Shown here one piece after another: positions 14,186-39,556 of a DNA stretch of 45,561 nucleotides. A program made the position numbers and the translations under genes. Position 1 is the first letter of the stretch, and each line of letters begins with the position of its first letter. The notes under the pieces are model-generated. The model was given only the letters and a program-made list of their open reading frames with translations. It did not search any database and was not told the origin of the DNA. This DNA is from a virus. Its lineage: Duplodnaviria > Caudoviricetes. The stretch covers positions 1-45,561 of the IMG/VR virus record IMGVR_UViG_3300002101_000015; one strand, 5' to 3'.

Positions 14186-16783
14186 GTGCCCATGGAAAAT
14201 AGATATCCATTTATAATAGATCTAAAAAATAGAACATCAAGTAGCATAAGATATAAACAAGGAGATACAGACAGTTCTATTTTAGAAATTAATTTAGTAG
14301 ATGGCGGATTAGTTAAAGATATTACAGGTGAAACTATAGTCTTTAATTTTGCTAAACCAGATGGAACAACAGTGAATCAAGACATGAGTCTTACTGGTGG
14401 GGTAACTGTTCTTGATGCTTTAAAAGGTAAGTTTCAATGTAAACTTAAAAATCAGACCTTAGCGGCTCCAGGAGTAGTTATTTGTGAAATAGTATTTAGT
14501 AATGCTGGCATAATATCATCTACGTCAAAGTTTAATTTTACGGTGGAGAGTAGCATTGGGGGTGGACCATTAAGCAAAAATTACATTACTCAAATAGAAA
14601 CTACAATAGCAGGATGGCAGAATGAAATAGATATAATTAAAGCAGCGTATGATAGTGCAAGTAAAGCAAATCTGTCTATAGAAGTAACTAATGCAAGGAA
14701 CGGATTTGCAAATTTAGATGCAAGATTAGATAACTCTGATTCGCAATTGGCTAATATTACGACACAAAAGGCAGATAAAGCTTATACGGATAGTCAGGAT
14801 TTACTAAATGCTAATAAAATAGCAATTAATCAATCACGTATTGATAATTTAGTAGCTACAGCTTCTAACTCTTTTTATCAAAAATGTTTAAGTACGGATA
14901 CAGGAGCATTATTAGTAGTTGCAAGTGGGGCAACAACAGGACAAATAAACCTCGCAAGTGTAACACCATTAGCAATAGGATATACAGCTATAAATGGTGA
15001 TTATGTAAGATTAGTCTATGGTGTTTCAAGTGGTACTGTAGAACTAACAGATATGAGAATAGATAACTCGGGAAACCTACATGTTACTGCCAACGATAGA
15101 ATAAGCGGAATTGAACAAGATTTAAACACAGGGTATCATATCACAAAACCTAAATGGGCGATAGGTTATATTGGTGGTGCAGATGGGGTATATGTAGCTT
15201 TAACTTCAAACTCCAATATAGCTACGCCTAATATCTTGAGTGTAAAAAAGGGAACACAAATAAAAAACAATCATACAGGTAGTTTAATTATTTATAAATT
15301 CGATATTACCACAGGTGCTTTTATAAGTTCTCTAATCTCCGTATCTGGGGGTGCGTCCTATACTTTCTTAGCTGATACTAATATAAAAATCAATTTAAGC
15401 TATGGTGTTTCTACTACAGATTTTACTTTAGGAAACTCTCTTGTTGTAATAACAGAAGTTAGTAAATATGCAAAACTTAATCAAGTAGACACAAACTTAA
15501 ATACTTTAAATGTTTTAAATAAAAATGTTCTTGATATACAAGGTGCAATTAGTGAAGTACCAAATTATATTGTTAATGCTATTTGGGAATTCGGATATGT
15601 TGATGGTGGAGATGGTTCACTAAAAACTAATTCGTTCACAGCAAGACTTCTTAATATACTATTTATGCCAATAGGTTCAACTTTAGAAGTCACTAATAGT
15701 AACGTAACAATAGCAGTCTCGAAATATATAAATGGGTTATGGAACTCAACAAATATTTTCATAACATTAGCGAGTGGTAAATATACGTTTCTATCGGATA
15801 TGTATATTAAAATCAACTATGGATACGCAGGAAACCCTGCTATCACAGATTTAACACTGCCAAATAGTTATGTAATTATTAAAAAAGGTACTATTAAGGC
15901 ATATATAGACAAAGTAACATCAAATTTAACAGTTGATAGTTATTGGAAGGGCAAAAAAATTTTATGGGTTGGAACATCAATACCTACAAGTGGCTATCCA
16001 GAAATTGTTGGAACGGAATTAGGCGCAACAGTTTATAATGAAGCAGTAGGCAGTAGTGGTGTTAGAGCAGGACATTATAATTTTGTGACAGGCACAGACA
16101 CCATGGGATATTCTGGATTATATTATGAAAGTTTAATGAGGTCTTTGTCTTTATCCTCTACGGAAAAGCAAGCAATTTTTGACAATTGGAGTACATGGCA
16201 ACCCTTAATACCTACTGCCCCTTTAACGATTTCCGATACAGATAAAGCATTTTATAAGACCTGTTCATGGGACATTAAACTTGCCAAATACCTTACAGGT
16301 GGGAGCATAGGTAAGGTTGACTTATATGTATTTGACCATGGACACAATGATGCAGGCTTAGGATATAATTATGATACATTGAATACCATGCCACCAACAG
16401 ATACTAAAGATAGACGATATTTTATAGGTGCTATGAATTTTCTTATAGATAAAATCTTAACTGACAATCCAAGAGCGAGAATATGCTTTATTGGACACTA
16501 TGAGAATGACAGAAAAACAGGAATTTCAGTTGCACAAAGTGTACTTGCAGAATATTGGGATTACCCCTTAATTAAGTCTTGGGAAAAGTTAGGGTGGACA
16601 CAAAAAACAATTACTACTACAGGCTATTGGCAAGATTCTGCAACATGGATTCCAAGTGGAGGTACAAGTCACCAAATGACAATGACACAAGTATGGCTTG
16701 CAGACGATTTACACCCATTCAATGTAGGGGCAAAACAAATGTTAGCTGATTTATATACTAATTTTATCAATAATGTTAGGTAG
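14186..16783 (+). CDS. Receptor-binding / tail fibre protein: BppU-like N-terminus, C-terminal SGNH esterase
   Basis: N-terminal KQGDTDS..KPDG; C-terminal SGNH blocks WVGTSI, DHGHND, DDLHP. Confidence 0.82.
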   Translation: MPMENRYPFIIDLKNRTSSSIRYKQGDTDSSILEINLVDGGLVKDITGETIVFNFAKPDGTTVNQDMSLTGGVTVLDALKGKFQCKLKNQTLAAPGVVICEIVFSNAGIISSTSKFNFTVESSIGGGPLSKNYITQIETTIAGWQNEIDIIKAAYDSASKANLSIEVTNARNGFANLDARLDNSDSQLANITTQKADKAYTDSQDLLNANKIAINQSRIDNLVATASNSFYQKCLSTDTGALLVVASGATTGQINLASVTPLAIGYTAINGDYVRLVYGVSSGTVELTDMRIDNSGNLHVTANDRISGIEQDLNTGYHITKPKWAIGYIGGADGVYVALTSNSNIATPNILSVKKGTQIKNNHTGSLIIYKFDITTGAFISSLISVSGGASYTFLADTNIKINLSYGVSTTDFTLGNSLVVITEVSKYAKLNQVDTNLNTLNVLNKNVLDIQGAISEVPNYIVNAIWEFGYVDGGDGSLKTNSFTARLLNILFMPIGSTLEVTNSNVTIAVSKYINGLWNSTNIFITLASGKYTFLSDMYIKINYGYAGNPAITDLTLPNSYVIIKKGTIKAYIDKVTSNLTVDSYWKGKKILWVGTSIPTSGYPEIVGTELGATVYNEAVGSSGVRAGHYNFVTGTDTMGYSGLYYESLMRSLSLSSTEKQAIFDNWSTWQPLIPTAPLTISDTDKAFYKTCSWDIKLAKYLTGGSIGKVDLYVFDHGHNDAGLGYNYDTLNTMPPTDTKDRRYFIGAMNFLIDKILTDNPRARICFIGHYENDRKTGISVAQSVLAEYWDYPLIKSWEKLGWTQKTITTTGYWQDSATWIPSGGTSHQMTMTQVWLADDLHPFNVGAKQMLADLYTNFINNVR
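14741..14762. repeat. Quasi-palindromic site A (TCGCAAT-TGGCTAAT-ATTACGA)
   Basis: In-frame within the RBP gene (SQLANIT); same CG-N16-CG geometry as sites B, C and E. Confidence 0.65.
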
Positions 16784-16788
16784 TTATG

Positions 16789-16810
16789 TCGCAATAGGAT
16801 ACTAATACGC
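16789..16810. repeat. Quasi-palindromic site B (TCGCAAT-AGGATACT-AATACGC)
   Basis: 5 bp after the RBP stop codon. Confidence 0.62.
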
Positions 16811-16835
16811 ATTAATATCTATTAGTGTGTATTAA

Positions 16836-16897: not shown

Positions 16898-17064
16898 ATG
16901 GCAGTCAGAAGACAAAATATTACGGTTGATCCAGAAGTCTTTGAAGAGTTTTGCAAATATGCGGGTCCCAAAGGTATAAAAATTTCTACCTGGATTCTGC
17001 AAAAATGCGTAAATTTGTGGAAGATGAAAAGATGCTTGAAGAAATAAAGAAAAATAAAAGGTGA
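16898..17064 (+). pseudogene. Ribbon-helix-helix-like small regulator, apparently frameshifted
   Basis: MAVRRQNITVDPEVFEEFCKYAGPKGIKISTWI...; GAGGTG RBS; read frame stops at 17047, and adding one base near 16996 gives ..SAKMRKFVEDEKMLEEIKKNKR to TGA 17064. Confidence 0.6.
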
Positions 17065-17088
17065 GGCACTCGCAAGGGTGTCTTTTTT
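17065..17088 (+). terminator. Intrinsic terminator
   Basis: GGCACTC-gcaa-GGGTGTC-TTTTTT. Confidence 0.8.
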
Positions 17089-19840: not shown

Positions 19841-20698
19841 ATGATTTTGGGAGTAGATTTAGGCAATGATAGTGTAAAAACCTCAAAGGGTATCAGTTTT
19901 CTATCTAAAGTATCAAAAGTGGGTAATATTTTAAATAATAATATAACCTTATCAACTTCAAACGATATCTTTTTCATAGAGGAAGGAAAGTTTGATACTG
20001 AATATAGGAAGATAAAAAAGGAATACATTAGAGAAATGTTTCTTGTTGCTGTGGCTTTAAGTTCAGGCGAAATAAATAATCAAATAGTAGTTGGGCTGCC
20101 ACTTAGCCAATACAAAGCAGATAAAGAAACATTTAAAAATCTATTATTAAAAGATAGGATGCAACGGATCAGTGTAAATGGTAATGATAGGAAGATAATA
20201 ATTGAAGATTTGGAGATTTATCCTGAAGGTATTGGAGCATTAGTTGGTCAAGAGTTTGATGGAATAATCGTAGATATTGGTGGAAGAACAACAGATATAG
20301 CCTTATTGGAAAATGGAAAAGTAAAGAAGCCTTATTCTTTACCCACAGGGACTTTAAATTTGTATTCAGAGTTCATAAAAACAATTAATAGTAAATACTC
20401 TTTAGATCTAAAATCAGAAGATGCAAATAGGATTATAAAAAATGGTTTAAAAATCTATGGTGAGCAGAAAGATATTAATTTTGGGTTAGATATATTTAAA
20501 GCCTACGTAGAGGGCATAGTGAGTGAATTACAAGTAAGTTATAGTATTAAGACATTAGACATCATGCTTATTGGTGGAGGCGCTACATTGCTATATAAAG
20601 CATTTAAAAACAGGATTCCTAATGTTCAATTAATAAATGATGCAATATTTGCAAATGCCAATGGATTTAAAAAGGTGGGTGAGAATTTATGGCTTTAA
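19841..20698 (+). CDS. ParM/StbA-family actin-like ATPase
   Basis: GVDLGN, VGLP, YPEG, VDIGGRTTD, IGGGA and ANANGF actin-fold motifs. Confidence 0.92.
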   Translation: MILGVDLGNDSVKTSKGISFLSKVSKVGNILNNNITLSTSNDIFFIEEGKFDTEYRKIKKEYIREMFLVAVALSSGEINNQIVVGLPLSQYKADKETFKNLLLKDRMQRISVNGNDRKIIIEDLEIYPEGIGALVGQEFDGIIVDIGGRTTDIALLENGKVKKPYSLPTGTLNLYSEFIKTINSKYSLDLKSEDANRIIKNGLKIYGEQKDINFGLDIFKAYVEGIVSELQVSYSIKTLDIMLIGGGATLLYKAFKNRIPNVQLINDAIFANANGFKKVGENLWL

Positions 20699-25164: not shown

Positions 25165-25406
25165 AAAACCGCACAGAAAACCGCACAAACTCTTAAAGTA
25201 TAAAATAACAACTTAAAGCATGTGCAAACTTGTTGCTTTTGAGCAACTAATCAACGGAATACAGAGCTTTGTAAATCAGCACTTTAACAAATATATTAAA
25301 AGTTGCATTCTCATGGTTTCCTAAACCGTGGGCCGGAGGTTCGAATCCTCTTGAGCGCACCATTTACCCCACTTTCAAAATTGAAAAACCGCACAAATAA
25401 AGCACA
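25165..25406. other. attP: attP with integrase arm-type repeats
   Basis: AAAACCGCACA at 25165, 25177 and 25385 (degenerate copy 25396) flank a tRNA-derived core next to the integrase 3' end. Confidence 0.85.
25312..25362 (+). tRNA. 3' fragment of tRNA-Arg(CCT), att core (not a full tRNA)
   Basis: Anticodon arm ATGGT-TTCCTAA-ACCGT, T arm GGAGGTTCGAATCCTC, CCA end; no 5' acceptor strand or D arm. Confidence 0.85.
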
Positions 25407-25434
25407 AAAGAAAAAACAGCCATAATTGACTGTT

Positions 25435-26538
25435 TTATTTAAATATATTCTTAACTTGTTGATCCAATTCTTTTGTTTCTTCTAATCCTAAATGCTGATA
25501 TATCTTTTTCAATACCCATATATCATGTCCAAGTCTTCCAGCAGCGTACTGATCAGGTACGTTATTTTTATATAATAAACTTGCATGATAATGCCTCAAG
25601 TCATGGAATCTTATCTTGGGTAAATTATTGCTTTTTAGATTTATTATCTTTCTATATTTTTTACTAAAACTATCCGGATTATAGGAAAATATTTCGGGCT
25701 TTATTTCTGCTTTATTGTTATTTTTAATTTCATCTTTTTTACTTTTCTTTTTAGGTTTTAATTGTCTCATATCCTTTAATAAGGACATTACATAATCAGG
25801 TGCAATAATTGTTCGTATACCATTTGCACTTTTAGGTGACTTTAATTCGAATTGATATCCTTCTTCTTCAAGAGCTACTGCTTCATCTACTCTTATCATA
25901 CAATCTTTTTCATTTATATCGTCCCACTTAAGTGCAAATATTTCACCTCTTCGTAAACCACACCACCCAGCTAACAAAATAATAACTTCATCCTGCAAGC
26001 CAATACTTTTAAAAACCTGATGTATTCTTTCAAATTCCACTTCAGTCGGAATAGTTGGTGTAAATTCACTATTCTGTGGAGCTTTAATTCCCAAACATGG
26101 GGATTTAGTCTTTAATGTATCATAAAACATTTTGGCCAAAGTAAAATAGTGCTTTCTGACAGTAGTTGAAGATAAGCATTTTAGTTTATCAGATAGATAT
26201 TTTTTTATTTGCATATCGGTTATTTGGTTAACTCTAAGGTTTCCAAACGCTGGTGTAAAGTGCAGATCAATATAAGTTTTATATGCCTTGATTGTAGTGT
26301 TTGCAAGAAAGGGTTTATTGATCTCAAACCACTTATCCATATAATCACACATTTTCATTCTGCTTAGGTTATTTAGAGACCTATTTGCAATTTCCTCTTC
26401 AAGATCTCTCACCGCATTTTTACATTCTTTTAATCCATCTCTTGTTACATACTCTCTTAGCATCTTATTATTTGAATCTCTACCTACATATACGACAGCA
26501 CTATAGGTACCATTTGCATTTTTCTTTATACTCGCCAT
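25435..26538 (-). CDS. int: Tyrosine integrase
   Basis: GLRRGE, FHDLRH, RLGH and IY catalytic motifs; N-terminal arm-binding region. Confidence 0.95.
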   Translation of the reverse strand: MASIKKNANGTYSAVVYVGRDSNNKMLREYVTRDGLKECKNAVRDLEEEIANRSLNNLSRMKMCDYMDKWFEINKPFLANTTIKAYKTYIDLHFTPAFGNLRVNQITDMQIKKYLSDKLKCLSSTTVRKHYFTLAKMFYDTLKTKSPCLGIKAPQNSEFTPTIPTEVEFERIHQVFKSIGLQDEVIILLAGWCGLRRGEIFALKWDDINEKDCMIRVDEAVALEEEGYQFELKSPKSANGIRTIIAPDYVMSLLKDMRQLKPKKKSKKDEIKNNNKAEIKPEIFSYNPDSFSKKYRKIINLKSNNLPKIRFHDLRHYHASLLYKNNVPDQYAAGRLGHDIWVLKKIYQHLGLEETKELDQQVKNIFK

Positions 26539-34379: not shown

Positions 34380-34574
34380 ATGCGCTGCTTAGTTTGCAAT
34401 AGAACCTTGAAAGATAAGGAAAGTATAGCAAGGAAGATAGGTCCAACCTGTTTCAGTAGATTAATGAAATTTAATAAAGAAGAAAAGTTGAAAAAGAAAC
34501 ATAGACTTGAGCTGAAAAAGTTAGCAAAAGGAGATATTCCAGGACAATTAAATCTATTTGAGAAATTAATTTAG
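34380..34574 (+). CDS. Zn-finger protein (DUF6011-like)
   Basis: CLVCNRTLKDKESIARKIGPTC. Confidence 0.75.
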   Translation: MRCLVCNRTLKDKESIARKIGPTCFSRLMKFNKEEKLKKKHRLELKKLAKGDIPGQLNLFEKLI

Positions 34575-34598
34575 TTCGCAATTGCTAACTATGGCGAA
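34575..34598. repeat. Quasi-palindromic site C (TTCGCAAT-TGCTAACT-ATGGCGAA)
   Basis: Immediately after a stop codon; 7/8 arm symmetry. Confidence 0.68.
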
Positions 34599-34618
34599 AC
34601 AAAATAAGAGGTGGGAAA

Positions 34619-35575
34619 GTGGAAGTTAATGAATTGAAGATGCTCCAAGCCTTGCCTTTAGATGTGAAGATAATGAAGTCACAACAAAGGATTCGTGAAT
34701 GGTATGAGTTCTTTGGTAAAAAAGTTTATGTAAGTTTTTCAGGAGGCAAGGACAGCACAGTTTTATTACATTTAGTCAGACAAATGTATCCAGAGGTTGT
34801 TGCTGTATATTCAGACACTGGGTTAGAATTTCCAGAGATAAGAAGTTTTGTGAAAGAAACTGAAAATGTTATTTGGTTAAAACCTAAAATTGGGTTTAAA
34901 CAAGTAATTGAAAAGTATGGTTATCCGGTAATAAGCAAAGAACAAAGCCAGTATATCCAAGAGGTTAGAAATTGTAAATCCAAGCAAGGTGTTAATTATA
35001 ACAACCGATTAAATGGAAATAAGTGGGGTAGAGGTAAAATAACAGATAACTGGAAGTTCATGTTAGAATCACCTTTTAAAATATCTAATATGTGCTGTGA
35101 AATAAGCAAAAAAAAACCCATGAAAGCCTATGAAAAAGAAACAAATAATAACCCCATATTAGGCACTATGGCAGAGGAAAGCCAAATGAGAACAAAAGTT
35201 TATTTACAACAAGGTTGCAATGCCTTTGAGAATAAAAGACCAATTTCACAACCCTTAAGCTTTTGGAAAGAACAGGACATATGGGATTATATAAAACTCC
35301 ATAACTTACCTTATTCTAAAATTTACGACATGGGATATAAACGCACTGGTTGTATGTTTTGTATGTATGGTGTTCACCTGGAAAAAGGAGAAAATAGATT
35401 TCAAAGAATGCAGATAACTCATCCGAAGCAATGGGATTATTGCATGAGGGATGAAGTAAAAGGTGGTTTAGGTATGGCAAAGGTACTTGACTATATAAAT
35501 GTACCTTACATGAATAATATTGAAAATAAAAAGACACCTGAGGGAATTAAATATCAACAATTTAAAATAGTTTAG
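34619..35575 (+). CDS. PAPS reductase-family (PP-loop) protein
   Basis: SFSGGKDS, DTGLEFPE, CC..KK and RTGCMFC motifs. Confidence 0.88.
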   Translation: MEVNELKMLQALPLDVKIMKSQQRIREWYEFFGKKVYVSFSGGKDSTVLLHLVRQMYPEVVAVYSDTGLEFPEIRSFVKETENVIWLKPKIGFKQVIEKYGYPVISKEQSQYIQEVRNCKSKQGVNYNNRLNGNKWGRGKITDNWKFMLESPFKISNMCCEISKKKPMKAYEKETNNNPILGTMAEESQMRTKVYLQQGCNAFENKRPISQPLSFWKEQDIWDYIKLHNLPYSKIYDMGYKRTGCMFCMYGVHLEKGENRFQRMQITHPKQWDYCMRDEVKGGLGMAKVLDYINVPYMNNIENKKTPEGIKYQQFKIV

Positions 35576-35590
35576 TGAGAGGGTGAGGGA

Positions 35591-36490
35591 TTGATTCAGA
35601 TATTAGAACTATTCGGGGGAATAGGAAGCCCAAGGAAGGCTTTGATAAACTTAGGAGTACCTGTAAAGGCTATAGACTATGTTGAGATAGATGAGAAGGC
35701 TATTAGGAGCTATAATGCAATATTCAGCAAGGAGTTAAAGTATAAAAGTCAAACAGTGGTTGGATATAATCTTAAGCCGGATATATTAATACATGGTAGC
35801 CCTTGCCAAGATTTCAGCATAGCAGGCCACCAGAAAGGCGCAGACGAAGGAACGGAAACAAGGTCAAGCCTTATGTGGGAAACCATTAATATTATCAAGC
35901 AGATGGGTGTATGGAAGCCAAGAGTTGTTATTTGGGAAAATGTAAAGAATGTTCTTAGCAAGTATATGCTCCATAACTTTAATAAATATTTAGAAGAAAT
36001 GCAGAGATTAGGGTATATGAACTCCTTTGAGGTATTAGATGCAAGGGAGTTCGGATTACCACAGGCAAGGCAAAGAGTTTTTACTATAAGTTGCATAGAT
36101 GGGATATATTTTAACTTCCAAACACTTGAAAGAAAGCCAATGAGAAATATAAAAGAGTTTTTAGAAGATAATGTTTCAGAGGAATTTACCGTAACGCAAC
36201 CAAGCATTTTAAATGTAATAGGGAGTAAGGGAATTAAAAGAGCAACAGTAATTAAGGACCATTGCTACACAATTACGGAAAGGCAAGATAGATGTCCAGC
36301 TCAAGTAATTGATATTGGAAATAGTAAATACAGGTTTTTAACAGATAGAGAATGTTGGAGATTACAAGGCTACACAGATGAGGATTTCAACGCAGCAGCC
36401 AAAGTAAACACCCGGAGGACTTTATATAAACAGTCAGGTAATTCAATTCCTGTAACAATATTTGAAAGTATATTTAAACAAATTATTTAA
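35591..36490 (+). CDS. DNA cytosine-5 methyltransferase (orphan)
   Basis: ELFGGIG, GSPCQDFS, ENV, QARQRVF and GNS motifs. Confidence 0.93.
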   Translation: MIQILELFGGIGSPRKALINLGVPVKAIDYVEIDEKAIRSYNAIFSKELKYKSQTVVGYNLKPDILIHGSPCQDFSIAGHQKGADEGTETRSSLMWETINIIKQMGVWKPRVVIWENVKNVLSKYMLHNFNKYLEEMQRLGYMNSFEVLDAREFGLPQARQRVFTISCIDGIYFNFQTLERKPMRNIKEFLEDNVSEEFTVTQPSILNVIGSKGIKRATVIKDHCYTITERQDRCPAQVIDIGNSKYRFLTDRECWRLQGYTDEDFNAAAKVNTRRTLYKQSGNSIPVTIFESIFKQII

Positions 36491-36515
36491 TAGAACCTGA
36501 AAGGAGATAGAAATT

Positions 36516-36815
36516 ATGGGCTGTAAATGTGCAAAAGTAACTGATGAATACCATGGATGGGAATGCAGCATAACTGATGGAGAATGTATTTATATGTATC
36601 CGGATAGTAAAAGATGCGCTAAGGAATACGGAGAAGGACCAGATGCTCCACATGATAATTGTGAGGATTGTGAAAACTTCTATTTAGAAAATCATAAAAG
36701 ATGTTGTACAAAAAATCCGTTAGCTTTAATAGATGGCGATATAGTTCCAAGTAAATATATTGATGATGATACTTTATGTTGCGGAGGGTTTAAAGCAAAA
36801 TATGAAAGGAGATAG
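36516..36815 (+). CDS. Cys-rich hypothetical protein
   Basis: AAGGAG RBS; many Cys residues. Confidence 0.65.
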   Translation: MGCKCAKVTDEYHGWECSITDGECIYMYPDSKRCAKEYGEGPDAPHDNCEDCENFYLENHKRCCTKNPLALIDGDIVPSKYIDDDTLCCGGFKAKYERR

Positions 36816-36817
36816 AA

Positions 36818-37360
36818 ATGAGAGAAATTAAATTTAGAGTATGGGAAGGGAAATATGAAATAGGCTCGGATGGAACAGTTTGGAGCTTAGACTATAACCA
36901 TACAAGTAAAAGAAAACAACTGAGAACATATTTGGATAAGGCTGGATACCCTTATGTATTTTTAAATAATTATGGTAAAAGAACAAAGGCAATGGTTCAT
37001 AGAATGGTTGCAGAAAATTTTCTTGAAAAGCCAATTAATAAAAATCAAGTAAACCATAAAAATGGCGTAAGAAACGATAATCAATTAGAAAATTTAGAGT
37101 GGGTAACGCCACAAGAAAATGCTATTCATGGGTGGAGGTGCAACGGTAGAAAGGTTTCGGATAAGCAACGATTAACTATGTCAAAAAATTCAAAAGGCGA
37201 GTTAAATCCTAAAGCTAAAATGACTTATAAAAAGGCGATAGAGTTAAGAGGATTACGTGAAAATGGGGCAAGTCTTAAAGAGTTGTCGAAAATATTTGAT
37301 ATTAGCGTTTCTCAGGTTTGCGCAATAGCACAAGGGAGGTTTTGGAATGAAAAAGTTTAG
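36818..37360 (+). CDS. HNH homing endonuclease
   Basis: VHRMVAENF..VNHKNGVRNDNQLENLEWVTPQEN; C-terminal HTH. Confidence 0.9.
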   Translation: MREIKFRVWEGKYEIGSDGTVWSLDYNHTSKRKQLRTYLDKAGYPYVFLNNYGKRTKAMVHRMVAENFLEKPINKNQVNHKNGVRNDNQLENLEWVTPQENAIHGWRCNGRKVSDKQRLTMSKNSKGELNPKAKMTYKKAIELRGLRENGASLKELSKIFDISVSQVCAIAQGRFWNEKV

Positions 37361-37727
37361 GGTGTGGTGTAAGAATAATAAGCAATGGGAAAAAGACGAA
37401 TGTTTTTTATCACAGGATGGGAAATTATATCAACTCAATAAATATCTACAGACTTGTAGCCTCGAAAATCATATTGTAACTTTCGAAACTGGTTTAAAAG
37501 ATAAGAATGGTGTGGAAATTTATGAGGGAGACATTGTTATAAGTAATAATGGTGCAGTGCAAGGAGTCGTAGTATATCAAGCTCCAACCTTTGTAATTAA
37601 AAAGAATGTTAAAAGTAAGTCCTGGACTGAATTTATATTATCAGCAAAAGAAAATCAGTATCAAAAGGTAATAGGAAATATCTATGAAAATCCAGAACTC
37701 TTGAAAGGAGATAAATTTGAAAGCTGA
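37347..37727 (+). CDS. YopX-family protein
   Basis: KFRVW, TGLKDKNGVEIYEGDIV, VIGNIYENPELL. Confidence 0.9.
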   Translation: MKKFRVWCKNNKQWEKDECFLSQDGKLYQLNKYLQTCSLENHIVTFETGLKDKNGVEIYEGDIVISNNGAVQGVVVYQAPTFVIKKNVKSKSWTEFILSAKENQYQKVIGNIYENPELLKGDKFES

Positions 37728-37998
37728 AAATAGCAAATTTGATTTTGGTAATTTTGGTGATGAAGGTTACCATCATTATGCAGTAAATGCAGGTAAGCAT
37801 ACTAAAGAAGAAGCTATTAAAATCTACGAAAAAGAAAGATACAACGAAGCGCCTTATATAGTTGAACAATCTCATGTTAAGTGGAGAGCAGGAGTAAATG
37901 AAGATGGTAAACCATGTGTAGGATGGTGGTTTGATTATTATCCAACAGAAAAACGAAGCGTTTTGGTATGGGCTTTTAGATATAAATCTAATAAATAG
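37717..37998 (+). CDS. Hypothetical protein
   Basis: AAGGAG RBS with TTG start. Confidence 0.65.
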   Translation: MKAENSKFDFGNFGDEGYHHYAVNAGKHTKEEAIKIYEKERYNEAPYIVEQSHVKWRAGVNEDGKPCVGWWFDYYPTEKRSVLVWAFRYKSNK

Positions 37999-38003
37999 TT
38001 AAT

Positions 38004-38025
38004 GCGGAATCTGATTAAAAGGTGA
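38004..38025. repeat. Degenerate site D (GCGGAAT-CTGATTAA-AAGGTGA)
   Basis: 5 bp after a stop codon; same geometry with TG replacing the right CG. Confidence 0.4.
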
Positions 38026-38050
38026 CTTAAAATTGAAAGGGTGAAGTAAA

Positions 38051-38410
38051 ATGTCATTAAAATTAAAAAAGGGTATTAATCCACAAAAGTTAATGAATTA
38101 TGGGTTTAAAACAGGAAAGGAATGGGCTAAACAAGGTGAAAGGTGTTTAGAGGGCGAAGGCTATAGCTATCAACATGAATGGTATCATAAATTTTTAATG
38201 GATGAAGAAAATCCTAACAAAATCCTATATGCAGATGAAGAATATGACCAACCCCTCGTTCATATTTCAATGAGAACTGGTGGGAATTTTCCTAATGACT
38301 TATATATAGATTGTACTCCTTCTGGAACTTACCATATTGGAGGTTCGGAATTAGACGTTATAACAGAAACAATATTTGACTTAGTAAATGATGGTCTTTT
38401 AGAAAAATAG
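38051..38410 (+). CDS. Hypothetical protein (between sites D and E)
   Basis: AAGGGTG RBS. Confidence 0.7.
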   Translation: MSLKLKKGINPQKLMNYGFKTGKEWAKQGERCLEGEGYSYQHEWYHKFLMDEENPNKILYADEEYDQPLVHISMRTGGNFPNDLYIDCTPSGTYHIGGSELDVITETIFDLVNDGLLEK

Positions 38411-38417
38411 ATTAGTT

Positions 38418-38439
38418 ACGCATTTCAAATATATGGCGC
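38418..38439. repeat. Quasi-palindromic site E (ACGCATT-TCAAATAT-ATGGCGC)
   Basis: Just after a stop codon and ~120 bp upstream of the second recombinase. Confidence 0.62.
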
Positions 38440-38452
38440 AATAAAAACTAAT

Positions 38453-38555
38453 AAAAAGAGAGCTTGCAGTCTGGACAACTCTTAAGCTCTCTTAATCTCA
38501 CAGAGGAGATTAAATAAAGTATAACATAAATCTCCTTTAATTAAAAATTAGGAGG
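38453..38555. promoter_or_regulatory. Structured leader / antisense RNA unit of the second recombinase
   Basis: Hairpins at 38456-38493 and 38492-38513; anti-SD AATCTCCT at 38529-38536; - strand TGnTATACT. Confidence 0.5.
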
Positions 38556-38560
38556 AAATT

Positions 38561-39556
38561 ATGAATACAGATAATGCAAAAGATGAAGTGATAATTAAAC
38601 TGGTTGGAAAGTTAACATTAGAGTTTCCAGATATAGATCAGTTAAAAGTCAGAAGAATTGCCGAGGAAGTAATGTACAAATATACAATAAATTCAACAGA
38701 GACATCCCTCGTTGTTACAGACATAGATCAAAGGATAGAGATATATCTTGCTTGTAAAAGACTTGATGGATTAAGCTCTAAGACACTAAAGGGATATGAA
38801 CAAAATTTATTTATATTTGCAAGTTATATTAAAAAACCCATAGCAACGGTAAATACAATGGATCTGAGAATGTTTCTGGCAGTAAGGTGCAAAAATCTTA
38901 AACCAAGCAGTACAAATACTCAAATGTCAATTCTAAAATCATTCTTTGGGTGGCTTTATGAAGAGGAATATATACCGACTAATCCAAGTAAAAAATTAAA
39001 ACAAACTAAAGAACCAAAGAGATTGCGATATGCACTAACTGATGAAGAAATAGAAAATTTAAGGCAAGTTTGCAGTACAGATAAAGAAAAATCATTATTA
39101 GAGTTTTTAGTAAGTACCGGATGCAGGCTAAGTGAAGCAACTCAAATAGATATAGATTCAATAAATTGGTTTGAATTAAGCCTAAATGTAATTGGAAAAG
39201 GCAACAAAGAAAGAAAAGTATTCTTTACTATCAAAGCTAAGATCTTATTAAAAAAGTATTTGAAAAATAGAAAAGGGAAGAGCAAAGCTTTATTTATAAG
39301 TGAAAAGGCACCCTACGCAAGACTTGGAAACAGAGGAATTGAATATATAATCCATAGAATAGCGTTAAGAGCTAATTTTGATAAGTCAGTATTCCCTCAT
39401 CTGTTTAGACATAGTTTTGCAACACATAATCTTAATGCTGGGATGCCTTTACCAATATTACAAAAGCTCATGGGACATACAAGTGCTGATACAACGATGA
39501 TTTATGCTGAAATGAGTGAGGAAAATGTTAGGCATGAGTACAAACGAATATCTTAA
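38561..39556 (+). CDS. Second tyrosine recombinase (XerC/D-like)
   Basis: TGCRLSE, GKGNKER, HLFRHS and LMGH..TTMIY motifs; SAM-like N-terminal domain. Confidence 0.93.
   Translation: MNTDNAKDEVIIKLVGKLTLEFPDIDQLKVRRIAEEVMYKYTINSTETSLVVTDIDQRIEIYLACKRLDGLSSKTLKGYEQNLFIFASYIKKPIATVNTMDLRMFLAVRCKNLKPSSTNTQMSILKSFFGWLYEEEYIPTNPSKKLKQTKEPKRLRYALTDEEIENLRQVCSTDKEKSLLEFLVSTGCRLSEATQIDIDSINWFELSLNVIGKGNKERKVFFTIKAKILLKKYLKNRKGKSKALFISEKAPYARLGNRGIEYIIHRIALRANFDKSVFPHLFRHSFATHNLNAGMPLPILQKLMGHTSADTTMIYAEMSEENVRHEYKRIS

What the first reader, a model, noticed from the sequence alone, without database searches (positions are those of the whole stretch)
34575..39556. Candidate recombinase-driven gene-cassette system: CGCAAT-N8-ATNNCG sites next to a second tyrosine recombinase
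Seen: a quasi-palindromic site with fixed CG-N16-CG geometry (6-7 bp inverted arms, 8 bp variable spacer) sits right after stop codons. Copies are at 34575 (TTCGCAAT-TGCTAACT-ATGGCGAA), 38418 (ACGCATT-TCAAATAT-ATGGCGC) and, degenerately, 38004. Each is preceded by TAGTT. They bracket accessory blocks (PAPS-reductase-like, MTase, HNH, YopX; then one single gene), and the last lies just upstream of a XerC/D-like recombinase. The phage already has a separate integrase with its own attP. Established: tyrosine recombinase core sites are inverted arms around a 6-8 bp spacer, as in loxP and dif. Inference: this may be an integron/shufflon-like phage system that gains, loses or swaps cassettes. The differing spacers would block self-deletion and favour like-for-like exchange between phages.
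Basis: partly seen in the sequence, partly recalled or inferred. Interest (0 to 1): 0.88.

Follow-up and report, generated by a model that had tools for sequence, protein, structure and literature searches.

The report
Address-coded cassette swapping in Clostridium phages
This phage carries five copies of a short palindromic DNA site, and in related phages the same kind of site marks, to within six bases, where accessory genes and the far end of a tail protein differ; the phage's second recombinase likely cuts and rejoins DNA there, which would give these viruses a plug-in system for changing cargo and perhaps host range.

Summary
Observation confirmed and extended. In relatives, sequence identity switches at the edges of a 6-bp core (not 8 bp), both at gene ends and inside tail genes. 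Cores differ by position and keep their order; single-cassette indels and flank-preserving swaps exist. The sites are therefore very likely crossover points of a tyrosine recombinase. Which enzyme acts is open. The phage enzyme has all catalytic residues and sits just downstream of a site in 31 of 38 records. But 25 site-bearing phage records lack it, similar sites occur in host chromosomes, and the host's single Xer-like gene has an adjacent palindrome of the same geometry with different inner bases. Not an integron; closest are the Rin shufflon, the pneumococcal tvr locus and pdif modules. No paper describing it was found in 10 searches. This scan noted similar systems before on other DNA (unchecked AI notes). 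No reads or bench data.

The parts
14737..14766 (+). Site T1, in frame inside the tail gene; core GGCTAA at 14749-14754; reads D-S-Q-L-A-N-I-T
   Evidence: Score 18.7, second in the window; same site type in long ORFs of 25 of 40 records, with N- and C-terminal parts recombined at it
14186..16783 (+). Tail/baseplate gene: BppU_N domain before T1; about 675-aa C-terminal part between T1 and T2 with SGNH/GDSL-hydrolase-like look-alikes; likely the receptor-binding or cell-wall-acting part
   Evidence: PF10651 residues 15-139; C-terminal matches to SGNH proteins of unrelated phages and Atlas clusters at 0.92; binding role is inferred
16785..16814 (+). Site T2, just after the tail gene's stop; core GGATAC at 16797-16802
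   Evidence: Score 14.6; DNA likeness to five other loci (four records) starts at 16787-16820; GGA-type cores follow the tail gene in divergent phages
34572..34601 (+). Site A; starts in the stop codon of the DUF6011 gene; core GCTAAC at 34584-34589
   Evidence: Score 17.3; GCTAA-type cores open the array in L056, L070, L106, L536
34619..37998 (+). Cassette block A-B: PAPS-reductase-like, C5 DNA methylase, 99-aa ORF, HNH, YopX, 93-aa ORF
   Evidence: Pfam. The methylase's homologues are bracketed by sites in L530/L613, L536, L569, L401, L414, but not in most other homologue loci
38000..38029 (+).
   Evidence: Score 13.8; same core in L388, L393, L530; same core and right arm in L569
38051..38410 (+). 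Single-gene cassette B-C, 119-aa protein of no family
   Evidence: No hit in Pfam, NCBIfam or PHROGs or in the loci held
38414..38443 (+). Site C; core CAAATA at 38426-38431; last site before the recombinase
   Evidence: Top score, 20.2; CAA-type cores close 36 of 39 arrays
38457..38560 (+). Conserved leader of the recombinase gene: a hairpin and a helix predicted to cover the ribosome-binding site; likely keeps expression low
   Evidence: 10 loci aligned: 11 of 16 predicted pairs show a change on both sides; no Rfam match; function inferred
38561..39556 (+). 331-aa Xer-like tyrosine recombinase with an extra N-terminal pair of helices, no arm-binding domain; R189, K213/K216, H280, R283, H306, Y315 present
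   Evidence: NF040815 218.6 bits, cut-off 220; residues invariant in 44 homologues; model pLDDT 78.5, best fold matches XerA, Tn1549 Int, XerD
25166..26538 (-). Separate prophage integrase with candidate attP; not part of the cassette system
   Evidence: PF00589 + PF14659; tRNA-3'-like stretch near 25316-25362 and three 10-bp repeats; no cassette site here

Best explanation
The five copies belong to a family of about 30-bp sites (12-bp arms, 6-bp core) at whose core edges related phages switch sequence, and they are likely targets of the phage's own 331-aa tyrosine recombinase, which would insert, delete or swap the genes between them. Shown: site family, geometry, position after stops or in frame in the tail gene, breakpoints at the core in relatives, ordered cores, indels and swaps. 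From established tyrosine-recombinase chemistry: staggered cuts at the core edges, a Holliday junction, and a need for matching cores. Inferred: each core acts as an address (tail-in GGC, tail-out GGA, array GCT then TGA then CAA). One crossover between like cores would excise or insert a circle; two crossovers with a co-resident or co-infecting phage would replace a block while keeping order; a crossover at T1 would fuse a new C-terminal domain in frame. The enzyme would also serve, in trans, phages and chromosomal spots that have sites but no gene.
For: Breakpoints: at 31 informative gene ends with a site 98% of partners stop matching, against 30% at 214 without. Pairs sharing only the left flank match through position 12 and drop at 13; pairs sharing only the right flank start at 7 (43 and 11 pairs; 16 and 13 flank families). 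Same inside tail genes, 8 and 10 pairs. Genes between sites are rare ones: 1 of 61 in four or more records, against 90 of 147 upstream. 4 clean indels and 10 swaps. For this enzyme: catalytic residues intact; site within 3 kb upstream in 31 of 38 records against 13% for other genes; 24 of 24 marker-chosen loci with the gene have an after-stop site against 23 of 79 without; in some phages the gene sits behind the tail cassette instead, again just after a site; a distant clade of the enzyme goes with a different site (9 of 13 rows, none outside); phage arms differ from the host's putative dif at the two inner positions.
Against: No binding, cleavage or circle was observed; no reads were examined. 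25 site-bearing phage records have no gene of this family. Perfect-arm sites occur in 34 of 201 Clostridiaceae genomes, often among housekeeping genes and in genomes where the family was not found. The nearest relative (74%) has only weak array candidates, scores 8-10. Only 9 of 18 dereplicated homologues at 55% or more have a site within 3 kb, some being cut short. No close relative of the window was found, so its own breakpoints are not mapped. The profile was trained upstream of the recombinase, which inflates; pairs are not independent. Position 11 of the core often mismatches in exchanged pairs.
Confidence: 0.6

Rival explanations
1. The sites are real crossover points but are worked by the host's single Xer-like recombinase (alone or with the phage protein as partner or activator), as with pdif modules and IMEX; the phage gene is a helper or a passenger.
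For: A single-copy 330-aa Xer-like gene is in 180 of 194 Clostridiaceae genomes; 30 of 30 fetched copies have an upstream palindrome with the same CG-N16-CG, 12-6-12 geometry, the xerS/difSL arrangement (PMC1914069, passages). It explains sites in phages and chromosomes without the phage gene. In another clostridial family the host palindrome reads AACAAAA (19 of 30 loci), and the distant phage clade's site also loses the CG and keeps AAA.
Against: Host arms end AAA before the core in 22 of 22 distinct sites; phage arms have T at position 5 in 92% (left) and 75% (right) of 162 array sites and all 26 tail sites. Window sites score -21 to +4 on the host profile, host sites 24 or more. It does not explain why the phage gene follows the sites at two unrelated places.
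Confidence: 0.25
2. The sites are operator boxes of a recombinase-fold regulator (as MrpR binds SPBRE in SPbeta) or conserved linkers, and mosaic joints arise by RecT-type or illegitimate recombination at them.
For: The phage has RecT; MrpR and SroF structures appear among the fold matches; MrpR has the fold but no recombinase activity (PMC10516654, abstract). Conserved chromosomal copies, such as between tgt and yajC in three genomes, could be binding sites.
Against: Left arm travels with the upstream gene and right arm with the downstream gene, overlapping in only 6 bp; homologous recombination needs longer identity (established knowledge). The catalytic residues are invariant. One site lies in mid-gene where protein halves are swapped.
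Confidence: 0.1
3. Another mobile-element recombinase, not identified here, made and uses the sites.
For: Inverted site pairs bound 230-290-bp palindromic non-coding elements in chromosomes; several genomes with sites hold other tyrosine recombinases.
Against: No such gene was found beside 15 chromosomal site regions; the phage family is the one that co-locates with arrays.
Confidence: 0.05

Closest known systems
Rin shufflon of Bifidobacterium prophages (Mavrich et al. 2018, PMC6109161; 12 passages read)
   Same: Second, armless Xer-like tyrosine recombinase besides the integrase; one site inside the receptor-binding gene and one right after its 3' end; constant N-terminus, variable C-terminus.
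   Different: Rin inverts spare C-termini stored beside the gene through 11-bp asymmetric repeats. Here there are no spare ends, all window sites are direct, cores differ, variation is between phages, and the same site family also frames an accessory array 20 kb away.
Pneumococcal tvr locus (Kwun et al. 2018, PMC6265443; abstract and 12 passages read)
   Same: Tyrosine recombinase, two types of direct repeat that keep gene parts in order, excision-reintegration through circles, hairpin attenuator in front of the recombinase gene.
   Different: Chromosomal, shuffles a fixed set of hsdS parts within one locus; here phage-borne, open pool of unrelated genes, palindromic 12-6-12 sites.
pdif modules and IMEX (host Xer exploited by mobile elements; IMEX from PMC5357621 passages, pdif recalled)
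   Same: dif-like geometry with 6-bp cores, several sites framing accessory modules, resistance-type cargo in one relative.
   Different: pdif and IMEX sites have XerC and XerD arms and use host enzymes; these sites have two like arms that differ from the host's putative dif, and a recombinase gene travels with them.
Integrons (IntI, attI, attC; PMC8138268 passage for the IntI insertion, the rest recalled)
   Same: Array of mostly promoterless, co-oriented, rare genes, each ending in a site, beside a tyrosine recombinase.
   Different: No IntI insertion, no attC hairpin; crossover spans a 6-bp core; recombinase lies downstream and co-oriented; order is set by core sequence.
Engineered recombinase-mediated cassette exchange with heterospecific lox/FRT sites (own knowledge)
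   Same: Unlike cores on either side allow replacement without deletion.
   Different: Natural, degenerate arms, at least five core classes.

Membership tests
Tyrosine recombinase (active) | R-K-H-R-H/W-Y catalytic residues and CB+CAT fold | tested here: met
   R189, K213/K216, H280, R283, H306, Y315 invariant in 44 homologues; fold matches
Tyrosine recombinase target | Inverted arms around a 6-8-bp core with exchange at the core edges | tested here: met
   12-6-12 profile; identity switches at positions 7 and 12/13 in relatives
Tyrosine recombinase target | Binding and cleavage by the named enzyme | not testable with these tools
   Needs bench work
Integron | IntI with its insertion in the catalytic domain | tested here: not met
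   TIGR02249 93.9 bits against cut-off 265; aligns to XerD without a long insertion; IntI4 matches only residues 254-320
Integron | attC: folded single-strand hairpin with RYYYAAC/GTTRRRY ends | tested here: not met
   10 strands folded, z between +1.1 and -2.6; no site has both ends
Shufflon (Rin, Min, R64) | Inverted crossover sites and spare C-terminal segments in cis | tested here: not met
   All five sites score best on the + strand; cores do not match in inverted sense (3-6 mismatches); no spare tail segments. Inverted copies occur in a few distant loci (L007, L122, L127)
Shufflon (Rin, Min, R64) | Site inside the adhesin gene plus site after its stop | tested here: met
   T1 and T2
pdif / IMEX | Arms matching the host dif | tested here: inconclusive
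   Same geometry and outer bases as the putative clostridial dif, different inner bases; the host site itself is a prediction; the window's host is unknown; no TTATG XerD arm of the E. coli or B. subtilis dif printed in PMC3025954 (compared by eye)
pdif / IMEX | Dependence on host Xer | not testable with these tools
   Needs a host mutant
tvr-type excision-reintegration | Circular intermediates | not tested
   No reads were examined; clean indels between like cores fit but do not show circles
MrpR-type recombinase-fold repressor | Loss of catalytic function | tested here: not met
   Catalytic residues kept; activity itself untested
NF040815 (XerA/'integron integrase' label) | Score at or above 220 bits | tested here: not met
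   218.6 bits; many homologues carry this name

The most novel reading that the evidence does not exclude
A widespread family of phage recombinases runs an address-coded exchange network: each 6-bp core names a slot (tail tip, first, middle, last accessory slot), the enzyme is a public good shared among prophages, and the same sites link phages to cassette spots in clostridial chromosomes, so that part of phage mosaicism and receptor-binding-domain swapping is programmed site-specific recombination rather than chance.
Probability: 0.4. Interest if true: 0.92.

Novelty: new variant of a known kind. Interest (0 to 1): 0.8.

Why it matters
Phage genomes are mosaics that break at gene and domain borders, usually put down to illegitimate or relaxed homologous recombination plus selection (own knowledge). 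Here the joints map to a 6-bp core, inside genes too, which makes a programmed route directly testable with one protein and five 30-bp sites. It would explain how clostridial phages change tail-tip domains without storing spares, gives a function to a common 'second integrase', offers a natural set of mutually exclusive sites for genome engineering, and shows a path by which resistance-type genes enter prophages. The side finding of a dif-like palindrome beside a single Xer-like gene in Clostridiaceae bears on how these bacteria resolve chromosome dimers.

Tried and rejected
Single-protein locus searches gave one close relative only; the alignment search was needed. The window has no relative at 88% or more over 100 bp in the loci held, so its own joints could not be mapped. 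Rfam: nothing in the window, nothing at the chromosomal elements. Promoter and terminator scans: below shuffles, so the sites are neither. A canonical-dif pattern in five genomes gave background only. A tail-core pattern hit 6 of 201 genomes, one of them with the recombinase: too sparse for a host-level test. The reversed-pattern control for chromosomal sites hit about 45 of 201 genomes by my count, more than the real pattern (34); it is not CG-depleted, so enrichment in chromosomes is not shown by count. Bacilli as a test of host independence: 22 of 351 genomes matched, mostly a shorter 280-aa family without sites; one 330-aa member has a weak in-frame candidate, score 10: inconclusive. The rare-codon test at the tail site (ACG/GCG in 16 of 17 against 6-8% use) is partly circular, since the profile was seeded with those letters; given little weight. 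The tree is the quick one; the careful search did not finish. Read-level evidence was not obtained. An 8-bp spacer, attC hairpins and an inversion model were rejected.
Full report
Setting. The window is a whole 45,561-base virus record, 33% GC, a temperate siphophage-type genome whose recombinase has named homologues mostly in Clostridium at 61-68% identity; the host is not known. Besides the integrase at 25435-26538 (minus) it encodes a 331-aa Xer-like protein at 38561-39556 with all catalytic residues invariant in 44 homologues. The model (pLDDT 78.5, pTM 0.45) matches XerA, Tn1549 Int and XerD and has two extra N-terminal helices.

The observation. I took 77 loci (homologue at 43% or more, GC under 40%), trained a profile on 39 and tested on 38: 43 sites upstream on the gene strand, 6 on the other, 2 downstream, 1.2 in shuffles (loci not dereplicated). 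In the window, which was not in training, the five best positions are 38419, 14742, 34577, 16790 and 38005, then a gap. Of 107 sites, 79 lie within -12 to +40 of a stop codon against 9% of random positions; 15 fall in my crude ORF calls (7 opposite-strand calls, 5 the in-frame tail site), 13 elsewhere. The profile is about 30 bp: TANKT-CRYAAT-W, a 6-bp core, then the imperfect mirror.

The sites are breakpoints. In all-against-all comparison, matches start and end at the sites; at 31 informative gene ends with a site (of 80) 98% of partners stop matching, at 214 without (of 705) 30% (pairs not independent). Anchored on the site, 43 pairs that share only the upstream flank agree at 95% in position 12 and 42% in position 13; 11 pairs that share only the downstream flank agree at 64% in position 6 and 100% in position 7. 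With more data, weighted by flank family (16 and 13 families), the figures are 91 to 55 and 62 to 100, background 62 and 43; position 11 is less strict. So the left arm goes with the upstream gene, the right arm with the downstream gene, and both share positions 7-12. This is the footprint expected of a tyrosine recombinase with a 6-bp overlap (established knowledge). Four distinct clean indels were found (two between identical cores, one between cores one base apart, one between unlike cores) and ten swaps that keep both flanks. Genes between sites are rare: 41 of 61 singletons and 1 of 61 in four or more of the records, against 30 and 90 of 147 upstream; 8 of 56 families have a Pfam match, among them a methylase, YopX and a chloramphenicol acetyltransferase.

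The tail cassette. Site T1 lies in frame after the BppU_N domain and T2 follows the stop. In whole or near-whole records a tail-type profile gave 28 hits in 26 of 40 records (window included); two hits were not in such genes, leaving 25 records. N- and C-terminal parts recombine at the site: 8 pairs share only the left side, 10 only the right. Tail identity was checked by Pfam only for the window's gene. In the named phages TPELB_ph1 and phiCp-D the 44% homologue directly follows the last tail gene and a site, as in several unnamed loci.

Cores as addresses. Among 39 arrays with TGA- or CAA-type cores, TGA came first in all and CAA last in 36; 14 hold two identical cores. GCTAA-type cores precede them; tail-in cores are mostly GGC, tail-out GGA. 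The window has one of each class, 2-6 mismatches apart. The word 'address' is taken from earlier notes of this scan; the order was tested here.

Which enzyme. For the phage gene: a site within 3 kb upstream in 31 of 38 records against 13% for other genes; in 103 dereplicated loci chosen by other marker genes (of 109; six dropped for length or GC), 24 of 24 with the gene and 23 of 79 without have an after-stop site; both counts are inflated by how the profile was trained. A clade at 29-33% identity has another site, ACTAAA-N6-TTT, in 9 of 13 rows and nowhere else, while the clostridial site is in 22 of 52 rows at 40% or more and 2 of 26 below (quick tree). Against: 0 of 49 records tested, 25 of them site-bearing, had the gene (the same query found 44 of 45); the 74% relative has a tail site but only weak array candidates. 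Perfect-arm copies occur in 34 of 201 Clostridiaceae genomes (control pattern about as frequent and not comparable), 27 of 30 examined outside my ORF calls, beside housekeeping and accessory genes, in one genome as TGA/CAA arrays. Following this led to a single-copy Xer-like gene in 180 of 194 genomes, below the XerC, XerD and XerS cut-offs and 30% identical to the phage protein. All 30 copies fetched (the best hits) have an upstream palindrome of the same geometry. Its arms end in AAA; phage arms have T at position 5, and window sites score far below host sites on the host profile. I put the phage enzyme at 0.6 and the host enzyme at 0.25; that the sites are crossover points at about 0.9.

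Regulation. The leader folds with compensatory changes in 11 of 16 pairs over 10 loci, one helix covering the ribosome-binding site. The tvr recombinase is held down by a hairpin (PMC6265443, passages); the same role here is a guess.

What is known. Ten full-text searches found no description of this system; the library lacks most subscription papers and no supplements were read. Read: PMC6109161, PMC8138268, PMC1914069, PMC3025954, PMC5357621 (passages), PMC6265443 (abstract and passages), PMC10516654 (abstract). It works like Rin in the tail layout, like tvr in direct repeats of several types, like pdif in geometry and like an integron in array content, and fails a defining test for integron and shufflon; pdif membership is undecided. 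Earlier AI notes report similar ordered-core systems on other DNA; none matched this sequence, and they are not evidence.

Verdict. A real, previously unplaced cassette system: new variant of a known kind, interest 0.8. The comparative evidence for site-specific exchange is strong; the catalyst and any effect on host range are inferred.

Noticed in passing
L702-L731 (30 Clostridiaceae genomes), 35-80 bases upstream of the gene: A near-universal single-copy 330-aa Xer-like gene (180 of 194 genomes) has an adjacent 12-6-12 palindrome, e.g. arms AACTTCGCTAAA around TGTATA; likely the chromosomal dif of a one-enzyme Xer system. Not found described in the passages read; PMC3025954 reports failed dif prediction in two clostridia.
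   Followed up: partly
L732-L761 (family of G001): The orthologous gene has an upstream palindrome with arms ending AACAAAA around TAAAAA in 19 of 30 loci.
   Followed up: partly
L665:8680-8960, L666:8110-8400, L670:7720-8070: Inverted pairs of the phage-type site bound 230-290-bp self-complementary non-coding elements in clostridial chromosomes; possibly small non-autonomous mobile or invertible elements; no Rfam match.
   Followed up: partly
L628, L634, L635: A perfect site with core TAAAAA lies between tgt and yajC in three genomes.
   Followed up: no
L663:5900-11000, L664:8400-8900 (G602): Chromosomal accessory regions with alternating TGA- and CAA-core sites, as in the phage arrays.
   Followed up: partly
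L212:1671-2294 (record G412): A chloramphenicol acetyltransferase-family gene sits between a TGAAAT and a CAAAGA site in a related prophage; another lies next to a chromosomal site in L643.
   Followed up: no
L530/L613: A phage record with at least eight sites in 6 kb and no recombinase of this family (88% complete).
   Followed up: partly
L007, L122, L127: In distant clades of the recombinase, inverted copies of their site lie near tail genes, suggesting true shufflons in the same family.
   Followed up: no
L374:12426: A recombinase-less phage joins the right edge of a core directly to the inside of a gene that lies downstream of the recombinase in relatives: a deletion with one end at the core edge.
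   Followed up: partly
window 16899-17070: A small ribbon-helix-helix-like ORF after site T2 seems to change frame near its middle; label from recall, not tested.
   Followed up: no
window 19841-20698: A ParM-like partition gene (phrog_691) in a phage that also has an integrase.
   Followed up: no
L676:1492-2478: A 34% homologue above the NF040815 cut-off lies in what looks like a type I restriction specificity locus (context judged by eye).
   Followed up: partly
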